Below are positions 14,547 to 63,219 of a DNA stretch of 64,000 nt, piece after piece. Made by a program: the position numbers and the translations under genes. The stretch is from Mobula hypostoma. Its lineage: Eukaryota. The notes under the pieces are model-generated. The model was not told the origin of the DNA. It worked only from the letters and a program-made list of their open reading frames with translations, and made no database searches. The first letter of the stretch is position 1; the number at the start of each line of letters is the position of its first letter. Where the stretch lies: contig NC_086097.1 in NCBI RefSeq assembly GCF_963921235.1, forward strand, positions 121,460,001 through 121,524,000, read 5' to 3'.

Positions 14547-15260
14547 AAATATACTGCGTCCGGTGCTCATGGTGCGGCCTTCTATATATTGGTGAGACCC
14601 GACGCAGGCTGGGAGACCGTTTCGCTGAACACCTATGTTCTGTCTGCCAGGGAAAGCAGGATCTCCCAGTGGCCACACATTTTCATTCCACGTCCCATTT
14701 CCATTCTGATATGTCTATCCACGGCCTCCTCTACTGTAAAGATGAAGCCACACTCAGGTTGGAGGAACAACACTTTATATTCCGTCTGGGTATCCTCCAA
14801 CCTGATGGCATGAACACTGAGTTCTCCAACTTCCGTTAATGCCCTTCCTCCCCTTCTTACCCCATCCCTTGTTTGTTTGTTTGTTTATTTATTTATTTCT
14901 CCCTTTTTTTTCTCTTTTTTCTCCCTCTATCCCTCTCACTATAACTCCTGCCTGCTCTCCATCTTCCTCTGGGCTCCCCTCCCTCTTTCTTTCTCCCTAG
15001 GCTTCCCATCCCATGATCCTCTCCCTTCTCCAGCCTTGTATCCCTTTTGCCAATCACCTGTCCAGCTCTTGGCTCCATCCCTCCCCCTCCTGTCTTCTCC
15101 TATCAGTTTGGATCTCCCCCCCTCCCACTTTCAAATCTCTTACTAACTCTTCCTTCAGTTAGTCCTGACGAAGGGTCTCGGCCCGAAACGCCAACTGTAC
15201 CTCTTCCAATAGATGCTGCCTGGCCTGCTGCGTTCCACCAGTATTTTAGGTGTGTTGGTT
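14547..15260 (+). mobile_element. Penelope-like retroelement 3' part: GIY-YIG endonuclease, pyrimidine-rich UTR and hammerhead-bearing tail
   Basis: ORF 14525..14839 IYCVRCSWCGLLYIGETRRRLGDRFAEH..PVATHF..RLEEQHFIFRLG.LQPDGMN. Confidence 0.9.
15161..15197 (+). ncRNA. Minimal type I hammerhead ribozyme motif of the Penelope tail, probably inactive
   Basis: AGTC-CTGACGA-A-GGG tctcgg CCC-GAAAC-GCC: core intact, but the cleavage triplet reads GCC instead of GTC. Confidence 0.7.
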
Positions 15261-16029
15261 GAATAAAATAAACATATTGCTTGCCTTTTAAATCAAGTCA
15301 TTTGAATAGGGTCATATTTCGAATAGGAAAAGTAGTGTTGCAAGTCCAGGGATAGGATGAGAGTTCAGCTGTGTTTGTGTGTAAATCAAAGCTGAACTAA
15401 TCTGCAAGGTTGATATTGTTGCTGGTTCTCTGTGGAGTCTGAGGCTAAAGGTGAGTGATTTTTGATTCACTGCAGCATTGCTTGTCAGTCTTTTTGATAC
15501 ATCGCCCTTTCTATATTGGGTAAAACAGGTAACAGTCAGTTGTAAACTGAACTTTCAGTAGTGTGAAATATTTGAAAATGCTTCATAATTCTGCAAGCTC
15601 ATCAGGTTCTTAATGACACCACAACTGTGTCAGCATGATTGCCATTCATTCATTCAGAACAGACTCCATGAGTTAGCACTATATCCAATACTGACTTATG
15701 ACTTCCTAGCAACTGTCCACTGTAAGGAAAATATTCTTTAAATTGAGATTCTGTGACCACAGTTACTGCTTTGAAAGCTTAGGTGTGGCTATCTTGATAA
15801 ACTTTAGAGCCATGTCAAGGCAGACCTTGCTGAAGTGATTAGACACTTTAAATTTAGCAAAGTATGCATGATGGATAAAATAGCACAATTGCTTAGTTGT
15901 TTATCTCAATGTGGTGGATGCAAGAATATTAAAACAAAATAGTTTTTAATGATCCTACTGGGTATTTTCTGTAAAATAGTCTGAATTTTTCAACAGCTCA
16001 TATGCACAAATCCTTCTATTCATTTCTGA

Positions 16030-23687: not shown

Positions 23688-26600
23688 ATCAGAGCAAGAA
23701 GGCTGAGAGTGAATGGCTGATTTTCGGAGCCATGGTGGTTTTTACCACTTCGGGGTAAAAGAGAGGCAAGACTGCGCAGGCGTGTGACGTCAGCCAGTAG
23801 AGCACGAAAGGTTTAAAAAGAAGACCGTCATATCCAGCGGGCAGCATTCGGAGTGGGCAGCAGAGTGAGAGGCAGCAGAGTGATAGGGCTTTGGCTCAAC
23901 GGGCTTAGGCACTAACGGGACGAGGTGAGGTAGGTTTACTGTTGTTATTTGCGGAAAGGAGGAAGTATGTGTGTGAGGCTAGTTTTCTCTGCTCATATCT
24001 GTCAGATATGGGAGGTCCTGGAGTCTCCCAGCCTCCCAGACGGCCATATCTGCACCAGGTGTATCGAGCTGCAGTTCCTAAGGGACTGAGTTAGGGAACT
24101 GAAGATGCAGCTTGATGACCTTCGCCTGGTCAGGGAGAGCGAGGAAGTGATAGAAAGGAGTTACAGTCAGGTGGTCACACCGGGGCCATGGGAGATAGGC
24201 AAGTGGGTCGCAGTCAGGAGGGGGAAGGGGAAGAGTCAGGTACTAGAGAGTACCCGTGTGGCTGTACCCCTTGACAATAAATACTCCTGTTTCAGTACTT
24301 CTGGGGGGACAGCCTACCTGGAGAAAGCAACAGTGGCCGTGCCTCTGGCACAGAGTCTGGCCCTGTGGCTCAGAAGGGTAGGGAAAGGAAGAAGAAGGCA
24401 GTAGTGATAGGGAACTCTATAGTTAGGGGGTCAGACAGGCCATTCAGTAGATGCAGGAAAGAAACTCGGATGGTAGTTTGCCTCCCACGTGCCAGGGGCC
24501 GGGATGTTTCAGATTGCGTCCAAGATATCCTGCAGTGGGAGGGAGAACAGCCAGGGGTTGTAGTACATATTGGTACCAATGACATAGATAGGAAAAGAGA
24601 AGAGGTCCTGAAAAAAGAGTACAGGGAGTTAGGAAGAAAGTTGAGATGCAGGACCGCAAAGGTAGTAATCTCGGGATTACTCCCTGTGCCATGTGATAGT
24701 GAGAATAGGAATAGAATGTGGTGGAGGACAAATGCGTGGCTGAGGGATTGGAGCAGGGGATAGGGATTCAGATTTCTGGATCATTGGGACTTTTTTTGGG
24801 GCAGGTGTGACCTGTACAAAAAGGACGGGTTGCACTTGAATCCCAGGGGGACCAATATCCTGGTGGGGAGGTTTGCTAAGGCTACTGGGGAGAGGTTAAA
24901 CTAGAAATGTGGGGGGTGGGAACCGAACTGAAGAGACTGGGGAAGAGGAGGTTGGCTCACAAATAGAGAAAGCTTGTAGACAGTGCGAGAGGGAGGATAG
25001 GCAGGTGATAGAGAATGGACGCGCTCAGACCGAAGTTTTGAGATGCGTCTTTTTTAACGCAAGGAGTGTTGTGAACAAAGTGGATGAGCTTAGAGCGTGG
25101 ATCAGTACTTGGAGGTATGATGTGGTGGCTATTACAGAGACTTGGATGGCTCAGGAACAGGAATAGTTACTTCAAGCGCTGGGTTTCAGATGTTTCAGAA
25201 AGGGCAGGGAGGGAGGCAAAAGAGGTGGGGGCGTGGCACTTGATCAGAGACAGTGTCACGGCTCCAGAAAAGGTGGACGCTATGGAGGGATTGTATACAG
25301 GGTCTCTGTGGGTGGAGGTTAGGAACAGGAAAGGGTCAATAACTTTACCGGGTGTTTTTTATAGACCACCCAATAATAACAGGGATATCGAGGAGCAGAT
25401 AGGGAAGCAGATCCTGGAAAGGTGTAATAATAACAGAGTTGTCAGGATGGGAGATTTTAATTTCCCAAATATTGATTGGCATCTCCCTAGAGCAAGGGGT
25501 TTAGATGGGGTGGAGTTTGTTAGGTGTGTTCAGGAAGCTTTCTTGACGCAATATATAGATAAGCCTACAAGAAGAGAGGCTGTACTTGATTTGGTTTTGG
25601 GAAATGAACCTGGTCAGGTGTCAGATCTCTCAGTGGGAGAGCATTTTGGAGATAGCGATCATAATTCTATCTCCTTTACAATAGCATTGGAGAGAGATAG
25701 GAACAGACAAGTTCGAAAAGCGTTTAATTGGAGTAAGGGGAATTATGAGGCTATCAGGCAGGAAATTGGAAGCTTAAATTGGAAACAGATGTTCTCAGGG
25801 AAAAGTACGGAAGAAATGTGGCGAATGCTCAGGGGATATTTGTGTGGAGTTCTGCACAGGTACGTTCCAATGAGAGGGAAGTTATGGTAAGGTACAGGAA
25901 CCGTGGTGTACAAAGGTTGTAATAAATCTTGTCAAGAAGAAAAGAAAAGCTTACAAAAGGTTCAGAGAGCTAGGTAATGTTAGAGAACTAGAAGATTATA
26001 AGGCTAATAGGAAGGAACTTAAGAAGGAAATTAGGAGAGCCAGAAGGGGTATGAGAAGGCCGTGGCAGGCAGGATTAAGGAAAACCCCAAGGCATTCTAG
26101 AAGTATGTGAAGAGCAAGAAGATAAGACATGAAAGAATAGGACCTATCAAGTGTGACAGTGGGGAAAGTATGTATAGAACCGGAGGAAATAGCAGAAGTA
26201 CTTAATGAATACTTTACCTCAGTATTCACTATGGAAAAGAATCTTGGTGATTGTAGTGATGACTTGCAGCAGACTGAAAAGCTTGAGCATGTAGATATTA
26301 AGAAAGAGGATGTGCTGGAGCTTTTGGAAAGTATCAACTTGGATAAGTCACGGGGACTGGATGAGATGTACCCCAAGGTACTGTGGGAGGTGAGGGAGGA
26401 GATCGCTGAGCCTCTGGCAATGATCTTTGCATCATCAATGGGGACAGGAGAGGTTCCGGAGGCTTGGAGGGTTGCGGATGTTGTTCCTTTATTCAAGAAA
26501 GAGAGTAGAGATAGCCCAGGAAATTATAGACCAGTGAGTCTTACCTCAGTGGTTGGTAAGTTAATGGAGAAGATCCTGAGAGGCAGGATTTATGAATATT

Positions 26601-27887
26601 TTGGAAAGGTATAATATGATTAGGAATAGTCTGCATGGCTTTGTCAAGGGCAGGTCATGCCTTATGAGCCTGACTGAATTTTTTGAGGATGTGACTGAAC
26701 ACATTGATGAAGGAAGAGCAGTAGATGGATTTCAGCGAGGCATTTGATAAGGTACCCCATGCAAGGCTTATTGAGAAAGTAAGGAGGCATGGGATCCAAG
26801 GGGACATTGCTTTGTGGATCCAGAACTGGCTCGCCTACAGAACAGAAGGCAAAGCGTGGTTGTAGATGGGTCATATTCTGCATGGAGGTCAGTCACCAGT
26901 GGGGTGCCTCGGGGATCTGTTCTGGGACCCTTACTCTTCGTGATTTTTATAAATGACCTGGATGAGGAAGTGGAAGGATGGGTTAGTAAGTTTGCTGATG
27001 ACATAAAGGTTGGAGGTGTTGTGGATAGTCTGGAGGGCTATCAGAGGTTACGGCGGGACATTGATAGGATGCAAAACTGGGCTGAGTAGTGGTAGATGGA
27101 GTTCAACCCAGGTAAGTGTGAAGTGATTCATTTTGGTAGGTCAAATATGATGGCAGAATATAGTATTAATGGTAAGACTCTTGGTAGTGTGGAAGATCAG
27201 AGGGATCTTGGGGTCCAAATCCAAAGGACACTCAAAGCAGCTGCGCAGGTTGACTCTGTGGTTAAGAAGGCGTACGAATTATTGGCCTTCATCAATTGTG
27301 GAATTGAATTTAGGAGCCGAGAGGTAATGTTGCAGCTATTTAGGACCCTGGTCAGACCCCACTTGGAGTACTGTGCTCAGTTCTGGTCGCCTCACTGCAG
27401 GAAGGATGTGGAAGCCATAGAAAGAGTGCAGGGGTTATTTACAAGGATGTTGCCTGGATTGGGGAGCATGCCTTATGAGAATAGGTTGAGTGAACTTGGC
27501 CTTTTCTCCTTGGAGCGACGGAGGATAAGAGCTGATAGAGGTGTATAAGAGGAGGAGAGGCATTGATCGTGTGGATAGTCAGAGGCTTTTTCCCAGGGCT
27601 GAAATGGTTGCCACAAGATGACACAGGTTTAAGGTGCTGGGGAGTAGGTACAGAGGAGATGTCAGGGGTAAGTTTTTTACTCAGAGTGGTGAGTGCATGT
27701 AATGGGCTGCTGGCAACGGTGGTGGAGGCGGATGCGATAGGGTCTTTTAAGAGACTTTTGGATAGGTACATGGAGCTTAGAAAAATAGAGGTATATAGGT
27801 AACCTTTTTAATTTCTAAGGTAGGGACATGTTCGGTACAACTTTGTGGGCCGAAGGGCCTGTATTGTGCTGTAGGTTTTCTGTTTCG
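23688..27887 (+). mobile_element. Near full-length CR1 LINE (ORF1 zinc finger/leucine zipper + SGNH esterase; ORF2 APE endonuclease + RT), inactivated by stops and frameshifts
   Basis: ORF1: VVIGNSIVRG, VVHIGTND, DGLHLN. ORF2: NARSV.NK, ITETW, MGDFN, SDH, NYRPVSLTS, GVPRGSVLGP, KFADD, RPHLEYC. 3' hairpin gggccgaagggcctgt. Confidence 0.95.
23773..23819 (+). promoter_or_regulatory. Putative internal promoter of the CR1 5' UTR (NRF1-like, CRE, TATA-like)
   Basis: tgcgcaggcgtg (23773), TGACGTCA (23785-23792), TTTAAAAA (23812-23819). Confidence 0.45.
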
Positions 27888-31810: not shown

Positions 31811-31811
31811 A

Positions 31812-31956
31812 GCAACACACATAAAAGTTGCTGGTGAACGTAGCAGGCCAGGCAGCATCTCTAGGAAGAGGTGCTACCTGGCCTGCTGCATTCACCAGCA
31901 ACTTTTATGTGTGTTGCTTGAATTTCCAGCATCTGCAGAATTCCTGTTGTTTGTGT
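31812..31956. mobile_element. Fold-back Penelope-tail insertion
   Basis: gcaacacacataaaagttgctggtgaa.gcaggccagg and its reverse complement cctggcctgctgc.ttcaccagcaacttttatgtgtgttgc. Confidence 0.85.
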
Positions 31957-32423
31957 TGAAAATGGGATATACACTCAATGGCCACTTTATTAAGTACGCC
32001 TGCATAATTGCTTATTATCCCATTTTCACGCCCACTAGATTTCACGTGTCAAATGGCTGCATTCTGCACCCAAGTAGTTGTTTGATTAATTCTGCCTCCA
32101 GTTTGCTATTGGCAAGAGAACCATAATATATCAGGTTTTCCCTATAAGTTCCAAACAGAATCAGGTTTATTATCACAGACATACCATATGACATGAAATT
32201 TGTTATTTTGTGATGGCAGCAGTGTTGAGCAATGACATTAAAATCTATCAATTACTAAAATAAAGCAAAAAAAGGGAGTAATAAGGGTATGTGCTGATGA
32301 CGAAGGGGAAGAAGTTGTTCCTAAATCATTGAAGTTTGGTCTTCAGGCTCCTCCTGTACCCTTCTCCCTGATGAGAGTAGTAAGAGGCATATGCTGGATA
32401 GTGAAGGGCCTTAATGATGGATG

Positions 32424-32907
32424 CAACACACACAAAATACTGGAGGAACTGAGCAGGCCAGGCAGCATCTATGGAAAAGAGTACAATCAACATTTTGAGC
32501 CATGACTCTTCAGCAGGACAGTCCTGCTGAAGGGTCTTGGCCTGAAATATTGACTGTACTCTTTTCCATAGATGCTGTCTGGCCTGCTGAGTTCCTCCAT
32601 GTCAACTGTACTCTTTTTCATTGATGCTGCCTCTCCTGCTGAGTTCCTCCAGCATTTTCAAAGTTGCTGGTGAACGCAGCAGGTCAGGCAGCATCTCAAG
32701 GAAGAGGTACAGTCAACGTTTCAGGCCAGTCCCGGCCTGAAACGTTGACTGTACCTCTTCCTGGAGATGCTGCCTGACCTGCTGTGTTCACTAGCAACTT
32801 TGATGTGTGTTGCTTGAATTTCCAGCATCTGCAGAATTCCTGGTATTTGCATCCTCTAGCATTTTGTGTTTGTTGCTTGGATTTCCGGTATTTGCAGATT
32901 TTCTGTT
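32424..32907. mobile_element. Fold-back Penelope-tail insertion containing a second nested fold-back (32659-32851), inside a Rex/Babar fragment (about 32155-33045, -)
   Basis: Outer TSD cttaa[t/a]gatggatg (32410, 32908); inner TSD tcctc[c/t]agcatttt (32645, 32852); inner arms 32659-32727 and 32734-32802. Confidence 0.88.
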
Positions 32908-50670: not shown

Positions 50671-53600
50671 TGAAACCCCGGTTTTCTCGAGTTTCTCTGG
50701 AAACGACTTGTTATCCCTTGCTACCTGCCTTCCGACTTTTCGCCAACAGACTCACAGTTCTTTGCCGCTTAAGTCTAGGAATTACACACTCCGGTCCTGC
50801 CAAATCTGCGAGATTGGGACGTCTCTCCCACTCAAACCCCGGTTTGTGTGAATGCTGTGTAATTTGCTACCCTGTCACAAGTTGTTGCCAGTACAGCACA
50901 CTCCATATGATTAAAGGAATTATATTTATCAATATTAACTAAAGGGTGAGTAAAGCAAAAGTGGCCCATTATAAATTAAACAGTCAAATGTGCTCAGGTT
51001 GGAACTCAACTCGAATAAAAGTCATATTCATTGATTCTCAGTAGACTTCTTCACCTTGCTCCATCGGATCACGGTCTCCACTGGGTCAAGTCCTACAATC
51101 GGTTCTCTCCAGGGTCTTCTCTCCTCATCTCCTGCCAAACAAAGACCCCAGTTCACACCGGTGTCAGGCACACCAAAACAAAACCGTTCTTCTGATTGGG
51201 TGGCTCGCATTGCAAAGCACACATTATCCCTAACCATAATGGAAACACTGCATCTACTGAAAGACCATTACGTTAGCAGTGAAACCTTTACCAGGGCGTT
51301 ACACTCTTTCCCCCCCACCAAAAATAGTCACCTTTTCATGACTGAGATAACTTATCAGCCCTTCATGAGTAACACGAATTCTCACAGAAATTTCGTGACA
51401 TCAGGACCTCCAGTCCAGGTGTAAATGGCAGTGACATATCTCACCAAGGGGATAGGCACCACACTCTGTTCCCTCGGTGCGACATAGGCCACTCTATCTG
51501 GGGGTTTCCTGACTCTTTGAGACCTTCTTACCCCATCAGACTTCTTCAGTTTCAGACATTCCCTGGGCTCTTTCCTGTCTACATCAGGAGGTCCATTACC
51601 TGTCCATTACTCATGCCTTTCAACAACTCAGGTCCCCTTGTCACTTGACTGAGCTCAGCTTCCTGCCCAGTTACTGTAGAGTCAAGAGTCCCGTCATTGT
51701 TTAACCGCAGACTTGCCTGCCCACTGCTAGTTCCTCCCATTCCACCTGCCTCAGCCTGAGGAGGATTGGGGATCTCTTTGTCAATTTTTGGGGAGTTTGC
51801 AAAGGGCAGCATATATCACACCCCCATTTCCTCATCCTCTGTGTCCGTATTGCATTCAGTGGTTAGGTTCAGTCTCGCCCTTTCTGCTGCTTGTCCGTTG
51901 GTTCTTCTATGTCGCCGAGGAGTCCTCTTACGAGGTGTAGGGTCCAGGTCAGGCTCTGGGTCAACATATATCTTTTGCCTTAGAGGTAGAAGGTGGTTCC
52001 GATGGAGAATACTGACAGATTCATTCCCATTCTCTCTTTTCACCCGGAAAACTGGTACGTTAGTAGGGAAGTGGTGTTAGGTAAATTGAAGGGATTAAAG
52101 GCAGATAAATCCCCAGGGCCAGATGGTCTGCATCCCAGAGTGCTTAAGGAAGTAGCCCAAGAAATAGTGGATTCATTGGTGATAATTTTTCAAAACTCTT
52201 TAGATTCTGGACTAGTTCCTGAGGATTGGAGGGTGGCTAATGTAACCCCACTTTTTAAAAAAAGGAGGGAGAGAGAAACCGGGGAATTATAGACCGGTTA
52301 GCCTAACATCGGTGGTGGGGAAACTGCTGGAGTCAGTTATCAAAGATGTGATAACAGCATATTTGGAAAGCGGTGAAATCATCGGACAAAGTCAGCATGG
52401 ATTTGTGAAAGGAAAATCATGTCTGACGAATCTCATAGAATTTTTTGAGGATGTAACTAGTAGAGTGGATTGGGGAGAACCAGTGGATGTGGTATATTTG
52501 GATTTTCAGAAGGCTTTTGACAAGGTCCCACGCAGGAGATTAGTGTGCAAACTTAAAGCACAGGGTATTGGGGGTAAGGTATTGATGTGGGTAGAGAATT
52601 GGTTGGCAGACAGGAAGCAAAGAATGGGAATAAACGGGACCTTTTCAGAATGGCAGGCAGTGACTAGTAGGGTACCGCAAGGCTCAGTGCTGGGACCACA
52701 GTTGTTCACAATATATATTAATGACTTGAATGAGGGAATTAAATGCAGCATCTCCAAGTTTGCGGATGACACGAAGCTGGGTGGCAGTGTTAGCTGTGAG
52801 GAGGATGCTAAGAGGATGCAGAGTGACTTGGATAGGTTAGGTGAGTGGGCAAATTCATGGCAGATGCAATGTAATGTGGATAAATGTGAGGTTATCCACT
52901 TTGGTGGCAAAAACAGGAAAACAGATTACTATCTGAATGGTGGCTGATTAGGAAAAGGGGAGGTGCAACGAGACCTGGGTGTCATTATACACCAGTCATT
53001 GAAAGTGGGCATGCAGGTACAGCAGGCGGTGAAAAAGGCAAATGGTATGCTGGCATTTATAGCGAGAGGATTCGAGTACAGGAGCAGGGAGGTACTACTG
53101 CAGTTGTACAAGGCCTTGGTGAGACCACATCTGGAGTATTGTGTGCAGTTTTGGTCCCCTAATCTGAGGAAAGACATCCTTGCCATAGAGGGAGTACAAA
53201 GAAGGTTCACCAGATTGATTCCTGGGATGGCAGGACTTTCATATGATGAAAGATTGGATGAACTAGGCTTATACTCGTTGGAATTTAGAAGATTGAGGGG
53301 GGATCTTATTGAAACTTATAAAATCCTAAAGGGATTGGACAGGCTAGATGCAGGAAGATTGTTCCTGATGTTGGGAAGTCCAGAACGAGGGGTCACAGTT
53401 TGAGGATAAAGGGGAAGCCTTTTAGGACCGAGATGAGGAAAAATTTCTTCACACAGAGAGTGGTGAATTTGTGGAATTCTCTGCCACAGGAAACAGTTGA
53501 GGCCAGTTCATTGGCTATATTTAAGAGGGAGTTAGAAATGGCCCTTGTGGCTAAAGCAATCAGAGGGTATGGAGGGAAGGCTGGTAACTTATGTACGAGT

Positions 53601-54905
53601 CTGCTCTCAAAATCCTGTTGCTGATTGCTATGTGTCTACCTGGAGAGGCCATAATGAACGAAATACTTTTCCCATAACACTTTGGCCGGGGTGGACGCTC
53701 TCTGATCCTTTGTAGGGAAGGCTTGCACATATCTGGTACAGTGATCGGTAATAACCGAGACATTCTCCATGTTGCTGACATCAGGCTCTATTGATAGAAA
53801 ATCCATACATACCCAATCAAGTGGCTCTGCACTCTGCAAATGAGATAATGGAGTGACCCTTGTAGGCAGCTTCTTCCTCCGTATACATAGTATGCACGAA
53901 TTGCGGTACTCTTCGACCTCTGGTTTCATTTCAGGCCAGTAGAACAGATCTCTGGCCAATCCACTTGTCTTGCCAACCCCCCAAATGACCTGAATCATCA
54001 TGAAAGATCCTCTCCTTTTGTCTTCCTTCCTTTCCACCCCAAGGGAGGGTAACCACACAGAAGCTGATTCAAAGAGTGACTCACTTTAGAGTAGTCCTTC
54101 ATGAACCTCCAATAGTACCCACCGAGTCCAAGGAATGAGCGTAGGGAACTCACAGTATGGGGCCTTGGCCATGAGGTCACTGCCTCAATCTTTGACTGAT
54201 CAGTACCTACTCCATCCCATGAGACTATGTGCCCAACCTAGCTGACAGAAGTCTGGCACTTGTCCAGTGAAAGCTTTAATCCTTCAGCTTTCAGGCGGTC
54301 TAACACCTTCCGTAGCCTCGCTTCATATTCCTCCAAGATGGACCCAAACACTGTGAGATCATCCAGGTACACCAATACCTCAAGCAAATTCATATCCCCC
54401 ACTGTTTTCTCCATGACATGCTGGAAAGTAGCCAGGGTTCCTGATATATCCTGGGGCATCGTTTCAAACTGGAAGAATCCAAGTGGACATATGAATGCCA
54501 CCTTCTCTTTGTCAGTCTTACTCATGAAGATCTAATAATACCCACTCCTCAAGTCCAGCACACGGAACCACTTTGCACCATTCAGACAGACCAACGTGTC
54601 CTCAAATCTCAGGACCATATACTGGTTGGGGACAGTACACCTGTTCAGAGCCTGATTGTCCACACACATACGTACCTTCCCATTCTTCCTGGCCACTACT
54701 ATTGGGGATGCATAGTGACTCCTGTTTTCAGTGATGATCCCAGCTTCTTTCAGCTTCTGCAGATGCTGTCAAGCACCTTCCACCTCTGCAGGTACCAGTC
54801 GCTGTGACCTTTCTCTGCACGGGGTGTCCTCTGTCACCCGGATAATGTGGCAAGTGCTCTTGGAACAACCCACATCAAACTCGTCGGTAGAAAAGACGTC
54901 TTCCA
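50671..54905 (-). mobile_element. Gypsy LTR retrotransposon remnant (RT and integrase pieces, PPT, 3' LTR about 50671-51303); gag and 5' LTR lost
   Basis: RT: AFICPLGFFQF..MPQ..VYLDDL..KLSLDKCQ (54238..54525). Integrase: FYWP..C..C, CMDFL..DHCTRY (53636..54058) and LHRNHLLPL. Minus strand GGTGGGGGGGAAAGAG|TGTAAC is a PPT/LTR junction at 51303. Left LTR boundary uncertain. Confidence 0.9.
52058..53586 (+). mobile_element. Young CR1 RT fragment inserted in the Gypsy integrase; truncated at both ends
   Basis: KSPGPDGLHPRVLKE, QHGFVKGKSCLTNL, YLDFQKAFDKVP, VPQGSVLGP, KFADDTK; very few disablements. Confidence 0.95.
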
Positions 54906-54908
54906 GCT

Positions 54909-55757
54909 TCACTCCTGGCACTTATACTTGCAGGCAGATCAAGTGCTACACCTGCCCCTACACCTCCTACCTCACTACCATTCAGGACCCCAAACAGTCC
55001 TTCTAGGTGAAGTGACACTTCACCTGTGAGTCTGTTGAAGTTATCTACTGTATTCGCTGCTCCCAGTGTGGACTCCTGTATATTGGTGAGAGGCAGCATA
55101 GATTGGGAGACTGCTTCACTGAGCACCTACGCTTCATCCACCGGAAAAACAGGTATCTCCCAGTGGCCACCCATTTCAATTCCACTTCCCATTCCTATTC
55201 TGTCATGTCACTCCTGTACTGTTGCGATGAGGCCACACTCAGGCTGGAGGAGCAACACCTTATATTCTGTCTGGGTAGCCTTCAATGTGATCTCATGAAC
55301 ACTGATTTCTCGATCTTCCAGTAATGCCCCCCACCCCTCCCCCTTCACCATTCACCATTCCCATTTTCCCCTTTCACCTTATCTCCTTTCCTGCCCATCA
55401 CCTCCCTCTGGTGCTCCTCCCATTTTTCTTTCTTCCATGGCCTTCTGCCCTCTGCTATCAGATTCTCCTTTTTTTCAGCCCTGTATCTCTTTCACCAATC
55501 AACTTGTCAGCTCTTTGCTTTATCTCTCCACCACCCCTCCCCCTCCAGTTTCACCTGTCACCTTGTTTTCCTTCATTCCTTCCCCCATCTTCTTACTCTG
55601 ACTCCTCATCATTTTTTCTCCAGGCCTGATAAAGGGTCTTGGCCCAGAATGTCGACAATACTAGTTTCCATAGATGCTGTCTGGCCTGCTGAGTTCCTCC
55701 AGCATTTTGTGCGTGTTGCTTGGATTCCCAGCAACTGCAGATATTCTCTTTGTGATT
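54909..55757 (+). mobile_element. Penelope-like element 3' part (Zn linker, GIY-YIG, UTR, decayed hammerhead tail)
   Basis: PGTYTC..KCYTCP, HFTCES..VIYCIRCSQCGLLYIGE, RLEEQHLIF; decayed hammerhead cctgataaagggtcttggcccagaatgtcgac at 55625. Confidence 0.9.
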
Positions 55758-59835: not shown

Positions 59836-59953
59836 GGCATGCAGTGTTTAGTGTTGCCATGTGTTTCTGTTTTACGGAAACTGGTTTACCTGGATCCTGC
59901 ACTTCGTCACGACCTGGCTCAGCAATCCTCTTTTCTACTTGCTCTTTTCAGAG
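59836..59953 (+). CDS. RTTN: Rotatin coding exon (14th in window; gene continues beyond the window)
   Basis: aatag|GGC acceptor, GAG|gtgagc donor (phase 1). GMQCLVLPCVSVLRKLVYLDPALRHDLAQQSSFLLALFR. Confidence 0.94.
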
Positions 59954-62155: not shown

Positions 62156-62223
62156 ATGTCTTCAACTGCAATTTACTGAAATTGTACAACTCCACTCCAT
62201 GTTAGCCATCTTATGATTGTCCA

Positions 62224-62451
62224 AACAACAGGAATTCTGCAGATGCTGGAAATTCAAGCAACACACATAAAAGTTGCTGGTGAACGCAGCAGGCCAGGCA
62301 GCGTCTCTAGGAAGAGGTGCAGTTGACGTTTCAGGCCGAGACCCTTCGTCAGGAGGGTCCTGACGAAGGGTCTCGGCCTGAAACGTCGACTGCACCTCTT
62401 CCTAGAGATGCTGCCTGGCCTGCTGCGTTCACCAGCAACTTTTATAATGTT
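62224..62451. mobile_element. Young fold-back Penelope-tail insertion
   Basis: 88-bp arms 62267-62354 and 62358-62445 (2 mismatches), loop ggg, perfect 13-bp TSD ttatgattgtcca (62211, 62452). Confidence 0.93.
62356..62391 (+). ncRNA. Minimal type I hammerhead ribozyme motif (mirror copy on the minus strand, about 62321-62354)
   Basis: GGTC-CTGACGA-AGG gtctcgg CCT-GAAAC-GTC^GACT. Intact CUGANGA and GAAA core, stem I GGUC/GACU, loopless palindromic stem III ACGU, predicted cut after 62387. Confidence 0.8.
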
Positions 62452-63219
62452 TTATGATTGTCCATTTTATTTCATACCGTTCGAACAATTATAGTAGAAG
62501 TGTGATCAATCGAGTTATGATGTTCTTCTAAATGTTCTTTTAAGGTTTATCCCTTAATGGAGAACATTTCTGTGTGACGTTGCTCAATGTGGGGAGGCTG
62601 ATACACAGGCAGTCACCACATGTTCCTTGACAGATCGGGGTCGGGGTCCAGTGGCATGGAATGCAAGATGACAGGGAATGTAACAACTACAGTTTGTTTC
62701 AAAGTTATTCTGTGTCTACCTTTGTACACTTTGCTTTTCTTTCCTTCTTATTTAGTGAAATATAGCTTAGATACTCCTTGATAGAAAGATTTATATCCCA
62801 AGACTTTTTACTGAAGTGCAATGAATTGATAGCTTGGTATTTCATGGCTTATATCCTTGCAGTATAATACCATGTGTCAGCAGGGAAGATAGTTTAAGTG
62901 ACTCTTCTAGCGTTCATCTTCACAAGTATGAAATTAATTAGTTTGAATTCTGGGAGCAAAATAGAATGTATGAACATGCAACTTACTTTGGTTTCTTTGA
63001 GAAAGGACATTTTCAGTCTACAATGGTACAAAGTAATTCAGATCATTGCAACATACTAATGACAAGTGCAAACTTTTGAATTGTTTTCTTTCAGCTACTC
63101 CACTGCTATTTTTGACAGGTCATTATATTTGAAAATGTATCACTATTAGATGCCTTTTTAATATTGAAAATTATGCATTGTAACTAGTTTTATCCATGAA
63201 TCAATATTTAGACTCTTAA

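What the first reader, a model, noticed from the sequence alone, without database searches (positions are those of the whole stretch)
62211..62464. Young hairpin retro-insertion carrying a hammerhead ribozyme on each strand
Seen: a 228-bp insert with a perfect 13-bp TSD, made of the Penelope tail folded back on itself (88-bp arms, 3-nt loop). Both mismatches are G-U wobbles on the + (RTTN sense) RNA. The hairpin apex lies right at the 5' edge of the hammerhead, so CTGACGA..GAAAC-GTC reads outward on both strands. Established: Penelope-like elements carry minimal hammerheads with palindromic stem III thought to cleave as dimers, and often show inverted terminal repeats. Inference: the antisense arm would sequester the ribozyme in the pre-mRNA, making the insertion tolerable in an essential gene. 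The unit may be a non-autonomous, retrozyme-like element rather than a one-off truncation.
Basis: partly seen in the sequence, partly recalled or inferred. Interest (0 to 1): 0.72.

Follow-up and report, generated by a model that had tools for sequence, protein, structure and literature searches.

The report
Ordinary two-armed Penelope retrotransposon stub
This 228-base hairpin in an intron of a shark-or-ray rotatin gene is one of hundreds of similar stubs of a Penelope-like jumping gene, likely built afresh at each insertion rather than spreading as its own element, and its two ribozyme motifs are predicted to be inactive.

Summary
The anatomy is real: 13-bp TSD, 228-bp insert, 88-bp arms, GGG loop, hammerhead core on both strands, inside an RTTN intron. 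It is the known Penelope-like insertion unit (one tailed arm plus an inverted tail-less arm) of a 3.5-kb Neptune-type element with about 52,000 exact hammerhead copies here. 822 places have an apex at this edge; 33 different loops occur among 50 listed. The nine copies with this exact apex span at least five haplotypes and both polarities, so no propagating hairpin family was found. The minus-strand motif has no stem I; the plus-strand one has 4 bp and is predicted to be buried. The insertion is shared with a second organism label, so it is not brand-new. The less ordinary point is family-wide: 5' ends pile up at the hammerhead's upstream edge, not at its cut site, and the two arms of one insertion stop there together (51 of 52; 30 of 36 in a second subfamily). 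That favours a short RNA template. The scan has reported this pattern many times before, on other DNA of this genome and in other genomes.

The parts
62211..62223 (.). left target-site duplication (13 bp)
62224..62354 (-). tailed arm: element positions 0 to +131 (0 = the T that opens TCCTGA, two bases before the hammerhead core), antisense to RTTN
   Evidence: 94.7% identical to the L125 copy
62224..62260 (-). one-sided Penelope 'tail' (about 37 nt between the two inferred RT start sites, about +95 and +131); in full-length copies it is the start of the ORF
   Evidence: tail concept from PMC11167929 and PMC8557442
62325..62352 (-). hammerhead core on the - strand; stem II 4 bp, stem I absent (T62324 change and CCC upstream), predicted dead
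62355..62357 (.). GGG junction between the two 5'-truncated arms; with its neighbours it reads like a copy of the stem II strand (inference)
62358..62451 (+). tail-less arm: element positions 0 to about +94, sense with RTTN; last 6 nt decayed
62356..62391 (+). minimal type I hammerhead motif on the + strand: core 62360-62387, predicted cut after 62387, stem I 4 bp (3 Watson-Crick + 1 G-U), stem II 4 bp closed by G-U instead of G-C, palindromic ACGU; predicted buried in the hairpin
62452..62464 (.). right target-site duplication (13 bp)
59836..59952 (+). nearest upstream RTTN (rotatin) exon; the insert is in the following intron

Best explanation
The insert is two 5'-truncated ends of a Neptune-type Penelope-like retrotransposon lying head to head between a 13-bp duplication, likely made during a single insertion event and likely inert since. 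Shown: the anatomy, the parent element, the two 3'-end classes (about +95 and +131), shared haplotype of the two arms of one insertion, varied junctions, and the pile-up of 5' ends at -30..+5. Inferred mechanism: the element's endonuclease nicks both target strands about 13-14 nt apart; each nick primes a cDNA on element RNA, one from the +131 start site and one from the +95 site; both cDNAs end near the hammerhead's upstream edge, most likely because the template RNA begins there (in full-length copies this pLTR sits at the 5' end, directly ahead of the ORF); the two cDNA ends are then joined with a few slipped or templated bases (here GGG). The hammerhead on each strand is a by-product of this geometry, and the template was not cut by the ribozyme. 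Confidence: about 0.9 for 'ordinary Penelope insertion product, not its own family', about 0.65 for two separate priming events, about 0.45 for run-off at an RNA 5' end.
For: Parent: 3,513-bp unit, partial tandems, ORF opening in the tail at +87; RT and GIY-YIG Pfam matches at E 2e-4 and 3e-4; CX4CxxC linker and YIDD, DKG motifs read directly. Unbiased sample of 99 tailed insertions on C1 0-8.1 Mb: 52 two-armed, 45 single, 2 other; TSD 13-15 bp in 41 of the 52; 11 of 99 have both arms ending in -12..+5, like this one. The short 3' end is a start site in its own right: 17 of 65 single arms end at +90..+105 and 48 at +130..+147, none between. 822 places with the apex at this edge, 33 different loops among the 50 listed (counted by hand). 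Arms of one insertion share a haplotype in 35 of 41; same-loop insertions do so in 14 of 68 pairs, different-loop ones in 135 of 878. Truncation rate per nt 0.028 at -5..+5 against 0.0005-0.0013 upstream of -30; 5 of 151 ends at the cut site +28..+33. Second subfamily: 0.020 against 0.0004-0.0027, 0 of 126 at the cut site. Genome-wide exact counts fall from 51,876 (0..+29) to 26,361 (-19..+12) and 24,641 (-35..-4). Arms concordant short/long in 51 of 52 (22.5 discordant expected) and 30 of 36 (p 5.6e-4). In vitro, an anole PLE protein cuts and extends both strands, starts at two internal sites that delimit the tail, is predicted to be a dimer and does not need hammerhead cleavage (PMC11167929).
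Against: No extra G (cap signature) at the two candidate starts: G 30, A 33, C 37 of the first 100 of 3,488 before position -2; G 29, A 34, T 37 of the first 100 of 1,320 before -6, both counted by hand. The 5' ends are spread over about 35 nt rather than sharp. Arm lengths correlate overall (Spearman 0.75), so concordance could also come from two coupled enzymes stopping together. Of 8 near-full-length copies that pass +58 of the upstream pLTR copy, 2 end at -2 and -23 and 6 read through. Concordance was weaker in the second subfamily (6 of 36 discordant; 9 of 90 insertions unresolved). The Pfam matches are below the curated cut-offs, and no tree was built for the Neptune call. The three genome-wide patterns differ in degeneracy and haplotype, so their ratio is rough. 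No RNA 5'-end data were available.
Confidence: 0.75

Rival explanations
1. Same insertion-time product, but the cDNAs stop because a dimeric RT stalls at a structure or bound protein at the hammerhead on a long RNA, both subunits stopping together.
For: Hotspot coincides with the stem I 5' strand; arm lengths correlate across all sizes; recurrent junction snippets copied from stem II suggest slippage at this point; no cap-G signature.
Against: In 16 of 52 two-armed events (15 independent) both arms pass the edge, with 5' ends up to 1,823 nt apart, so coupling is loose. By inference RT has already copied the 3' strand of stem I when it reaches the 5' strand.
Confidence: 0.3
2. The second arm is made by self-priming (snap-back) on one nucleic-acid strand, as proposed for inverted PLE junctions with an antisense template (PMC3846280).
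For: Arms share a haplotype; some junctions are near-perfect palindromes; it would also couple arm lengths.
Against: The tail-less arm ends at the same +90..+105 site used by single-arm insertions; either arm can be the longer one at the apex; TSDs are normal.
Confidence: 0.2
3. One reading: the whole hairpin is a non-autonomous, retrozyme-like element that is transcribed and reinserted as a unit.
For: The exact GGG apex occurs 9 times, and some loops recur (one 6 times among 50 listed). Two long insertions 1.4 Mb apart share one internal junction.
Against: The 9 copies span at least 5 haplotypes; the tail is on one side of GGG in 3 and on the other in 6; short arms range from about 48 to 100 nt. 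This copy's haplotype (including T at +84) is not matched by the other 8. Same-loop copies are hardly more alike than others (14 of 68 against 135 of 878). There are no head-to-tail tandem units, which define non-LTR retrozymes (bioRxiv 10.64898/2026.07.22.740005).
Confidence: 0.04
4. The hairpin was retained because it silences a ribozyme that would otherwise cut RTTN pre-mRNA.
For: The antisense arm is transcribed first on the RTTN strand and the motif's stems are predicted never to form.
Against: A single minimal motif did not cleave in vitro and dimers were weak (PMC4209133); this copy has a shortened stem I and G-U at the 10.1-11.1 pair; two-armed insertions are about half of all events anyway.
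Confidence: 0.05

Closest known systems
Insertion unit of endonuclease-bearing Penelope-like elements: pLTR, adjacent inverted 5'-truncated copy, one-sided 30-40 bp tail (PMC8557442, PMC3846280)
   Same: Head-to-head inverted copy, tail on one arm only, TSD, pLTR overlapping the ORF start, partial tandems in long copies.
   Different: Both arms are cut down to about 95-131 nt with no ORF body; the papers, in the parts I read, do not report a truncation hotspot at the hammerhead edge.
Minimal hammerheads (min-HHR) in pLTRs of metazoan PLEs (PMC4209133)
   Same: Type I core, one unpaired base before stem II, short stem I, palindromic ACGU without stem III loop. That paper also notes pairs of motifs on opposite strands about 100-700 bp apart.
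   Different: Here the two motifs are 7 nt apart; stem II is 4 bp and closed by G-U, not G-C; the - motif lacks stem I.
Poseidon element of Anolis carolinensis, PAc (PMC11167929)
   Same: Two internal RT start sites delimiting the tail just downstream of the hammerhead; both DNA strands cut and extended; uncut RNA used.
   Different: The parent here has the Neptune-type Zn-finger linker, and its ORF opens in the tail at +87 rather than inside the hammerhead.
Non-LTR retrozymes (bioRxiv 10.64898/2026.07.22.740005)
   Same: Non-coding, hammerhead-bearing, derived from PLE pLTRs.
   Different: Retrozymes are head-to-tail tandem repeats; this is a head-to-head pair with a junction that is not inherited as a family.

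Membership tests
EN+ Penelope-like element insertion | Parent encodes RT plus C-terminal GIY-YIG endonuclease | tested here: met
   RVT_1 E 2.1e-4 and GIY-YIG E 3e-4, both under Pfam's cut-offs; YIDD, DKG and Cys/His motifs read directly
EN+ Penelope-like element insertion | pLTR formed by partial tandem and overlapping the ORF start | tested here: met
   3,513-bp unit; upstream pLTR copy continuous with the ORF in 10 of 20 near-full-length loci; ORF opens at +87
EN+ Penelope-like element insertion | Inverted 5'-truncated copy with a one-sided 30-40 bp tail | tested here: met
   arms of 131 and about 94 nt here; 52 of 99 sampled insertions two-armed
EN+ Penelope-like element insertion | Target-site duplication | tested here: met
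   13 bp here; 13-15 bp in 41 of 52 two-armed copies
Neptune clade | CX2-5CxxC Zn-finger-like linker between RT and EN (PMC8557442) | tested here: met
   CX4CxxC ahead of the EN domain in L055, L056, L257
Neptune clade | Placement in an RT tree | not tested
   no tree built
Minimal type I hammerhead | Core boxes CUGANGA and GAAA-UH with palindromic 15.2-16.2 | tested here: met
   both strands
Minimal type I hammerhead | Helix I of 4-5 bp | tested here: inconclusive
   + strand 4 bp including one G-U; - strand 0 bp; parent 5 bp
Minimal type I hammerhead | Conserved G10.1-C11.1 pair | tested here: not met
   G-U in both motifs and in the L257 parent copy; other family copies have C
Minimal type I hammerhead | Self-cleavage as a dimer | not testable with these tools
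   needs an in vitro assay; Rfam gave no hammerhead match
Non-LTR retrozyme | Head-to-tail tandem units each with a complete hammerhead | tested here: not met
   single head-to-head pair
Non-LTR retrozyme | Propagation of the unit as a family | tested here: not met
   9 exact-apex copies, at least 5 haplotypes, both polarities
Non-LTR retrozyme | Circular or monomeric RNA expressed | not testable with these tools
   only assembled contigs were offered; no RNA holder listed

The most novel reading that the evidence does not exclude
About half of all insertions of this Neptune family are copied from an RNA whose 5' end lies just upstream of the hammerhead, with a dimeric RT priming both target nicks at the two start sites of the 5' pLTR. 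Tens of thousands of genomic stubs would then map the element's transcript start and record a two-primer integration mechanism in vivo, and the 150-nt pLTR stub might act as its own short template.
Probability: 0.4. Interest if true: 0.45.

Novelty: new member of a known kind. Interest (0 to 1): 0.2.

Why it matters
The locus itself is ordinary: one of hundreds of like stubs, probably neutral. The family statistics bear on an open question, how Penelope-like elements integrate and what their hammerhead does. One tailed plus one tail-less arm, no pile-up at the cut site, and paired stopping at the motif's upstream edge give concrete predictions for CAGE/RACE and for the existing in vitro system (PMC11167929).

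Tried and rejected
Rfam: no match at gathering score in the window; only generic hairpin matches at E<=10. Cap-G signature at positions -2 and -6: not seen. Spliced template: the sequence upstream of the motif looks like a 3' splice site and D. virilis has an intron ending there (PMC4209133), but single-arm copies ending at -2..+1 abut their TSD or share no upstream exon, so rejected. Propagating long inverted master: the L055/L056 junction occurs only twice in the genome, so rejected. Target-template microhomology at the start sites: means 1.3 and 0.9 nt against 0.44-0.49 shuffled (32 of 44 loci had a TSD call), but my control ignores the bias of taking the longest TSD, so inconclusive. Expression: no RNA holder listed; contigs cannot show RNA ends. 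Empty allele: no contig spans the whole stretch and no joint skipping the insert was among the rows shown (15 of 489 joints shown); the left flank 62170-62206 was covered in 1 of 4 runs. PDB search with an RTTN exon frame: nothing. Look-up of earlier findings by sequence: nothing. Literature: six searches ran; in the listings and the parts read I found no report of a hammerhead-edge truncation hotspot, but subscription papers (for example Arkhipova 2006, Lunse 2017) and supplements were not seen.

Full report
Observation. The structure is as described. A 13-bp duplication (62211-62223, 62452-62464) flanks 228 bp holding 88-nt arms (62267-62354, 62358-62445) around GGG. Both mismatches are G-U on the + strand, but both are transitions, so by inference this has about a 1-in-4 chance. 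The hammerhead core reads outward on both strands. A homology search with an exon frame returned rotatin in 8 of 9 hits by name and the ninth with the rotatin Pfam domain; tblastn puts RTTN on the + strand with the insert between exons at 59836-59952 and 65478-65567. That the host is a shark or ray is my reading from the repeat family (recalled) and the top hit; no call names it.

Parent element. Positions are given relative to the T opening TCCTGA (0); the predicted cut is after +29 and the tail ends at about +131. Upstream of the motif the family continues into a pyrimidine-rich 3' region and an ORF. A full-length copy (L257) has a 3,513-bp unit, a 935-codon open stretch beginning in the tail at +87, and a GIY-YIG part in another frame. 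Pfam gives RVT_1 and GIY-YIG below their cut-offs. The CX4CxxC linker marks the Neptune type by the criterion in PMC8557442; no tree was built. In 10 of 20 near-full-length loci an upstream pLTR copy runs straight into the ORF. The exact hammerhead stretch occurs 51,876 times and one tail variant 31,306 times.

How common is this shape? I took the first 100 exact tail matches on contig C1 (99 insertions; one has tails on both arms). 52 are two-armed head-to-head, 45 single, 2 have other inversions. Second arms end mostly at +84..+109 (46 of 52); single arms end either at +90..+105 (17 of 65) or +130..+147 (48 of 65). So there are two 3'-end classes about 37 nt apart, the tail of PMC8557442, which PMC11167929 ties to two RT start sites. 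11 of 99 insertions have both arms ending within -12..+5, as here. Genome-wide, 822 places match an apex with a 0-12 nt loop at this edge; the 50 listed carry 33 different loops (hand count).

Is the hairpin its own family? The exact apex occurs 9 times. These copies differ in TSD and arm length, carry the tail left of GGG in 3 and right in 6, and span at least five haplotypes. In 44 apex-class loci (24 from the two searches, 20 more picked mostly for recurrent loops), the arms of one insertion share a haplotype in 35 of 41 scorable cases, while different insertions share one in 14 of 68 same-loop pairs and 135 of 878 different-loop pairs. Junctions therefore recur independently. Against this reading: two long insertions 1.4 Mb apart share one internal junction, but only those two in the genome.

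The ribozyme motifs. The parent can form stem I of 5 bp and stem II of 4 bp. The + motif here has 4 bp of stem I (the GGG loop supplies one G-C and one G-U); the - motif has none. Both have G-U at the 10.1-11.1 pair. In the insert with 150-nt flanks an arm pair has probability 0.99997 and the motif's stem pairs about 1e-23 to 1e-38 (the stem counts printed for the + motif in that call were off by two bases and were redone). A single minimal motif showed no cleavage in vitro and dimers little (PMC4209133). Masking is predicted, but nothing suggests that it was needed.

Age. A contig of organism A bridges the right junction with 33 insert letters. Contigs of organism B, about 1% diverged in the flank, carry 23 insert letters with the junction, fewer than the tool's 31-letter bar for bridging. 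A contig of organism D, about 9% diverged, stops matching exactly at 62452 with 108 further letters that were not shown, consistent with an empty site. The insertion is lineage-specific but apparently older than the A/B split, if those labels are separate species.

The family-wide signal. 5' ends are not spread evenly. Per-base truncation rate is 0.028 at -5..+5 and 0.012-0.017 at -30..-6, against 0.0005-0.0013 further upstream; 5 of 151 ends lie at the cut site. A second, older subfamily (first 90 of 3,966 matches) gives 0.020 at -5..+5 and 0 of 126 at the cut site (boundaries less exact, 9 of 90 unresolved). Genome-wide counts halve between 0 and -19 and then barely fall. The two arms of one insertion stop together: 35 both short, 16 both long, 1 mixed, with 22.5 mixed expected; in the second subfamily 22, 8 and 6. 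Independent stalling of each enzyme does not fit. The simplest account is a template whose 5' end lies there, which fits PLE transcription from a promoter inside the upstream pLTR (PMC2377424, PMC6765202) and an Inr-like TCACT at -19..-15, the motif noted in rotifer pLTRs (PMC3846280). Against it: no cap-G excess, a broad rather than sharp edge, general correlation of arm lengths, and 6 of 8 long copies reading through the upstream copy.

Verdict. A new member of a known kind; the retrozyme reading fails its membership tests. Earlier scan notes describe the same thing: 17 findings in at least 12 genomes by words and several in this genome, including the edge hotspot and the transcript-start idea. 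My reading was written down before I saw them; they are unchecked and are not counted as support.

Papers seen: PMC11167929 parts 1-2 of 4 (abstract, main text, start of methods); PMC4209133 parts 1-2 of 4 (results, discussion); PMC3846280 passages and the Discussion; PMC8557442, PMC2377424, PMC6765202 passages; bioRxiv 10.64898/2026.07.22.740005 part 1 of 5 and passages. No supplements were read; they may bear on whether the hotspot is already in print.

Noticed in passing
window 31811-31952, 32423-32594, 32658-32848: Three more fold-back insertions of this family or a relative in an RTTN intron; the middle one (older) also turns at the hammerhead edge, the others at about +34/+48 and +17/+12.
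   Followed up: partly
L055 and L056 (G000:C1 about 0.40 Mb and 1.82 Mb): Two separate long two-armed insertions share an identical internal junction (-797 joined to -2620) found only twice in the genome; possibly ectopic conversion or one re-mobilisation of an inverted copy.
   Followed up: partly
L258 (G000:C21:136336500-136346400) and L257 (C76): A near-intact tandem of more than two 3.5-kb units, and a full-length copy whose 5' end is at -2 of its upstream hammerhead.
   Followed up: partly
apex junctions listed: Several junctions contain a short copy of the stem II strand placed before the core, as if the cDNA end had slipped between two GTC triplets; the GGG loop fits this class.
   Followed up: partly
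element positions -21..-1 (e.g. L025-L054): The sequence just upstream of the hammerhead reads both as a branch point plus pyrimidine tract plus AG and as two Inr-like motifs; D. virilis has an intron ending at the same place (PMC4209133).
   Followed up: partly
window 14549-15264 (+) and 54909-55337 (+): Older single-arm family copies in RTTN introns, sense to the gene; the first has a mutated hammerhead core.
   Followed up: no
window 24281-27548 and 52246-53403: ORF fragments that look like decayed CR1-type LINE endonuclease and RT (label recalled, not searched); 53636-54085 resembles an LTR-retrotransposon integrase fragment and 1738-2106 a Tc1-like transposase fragment.
   Followed up: no
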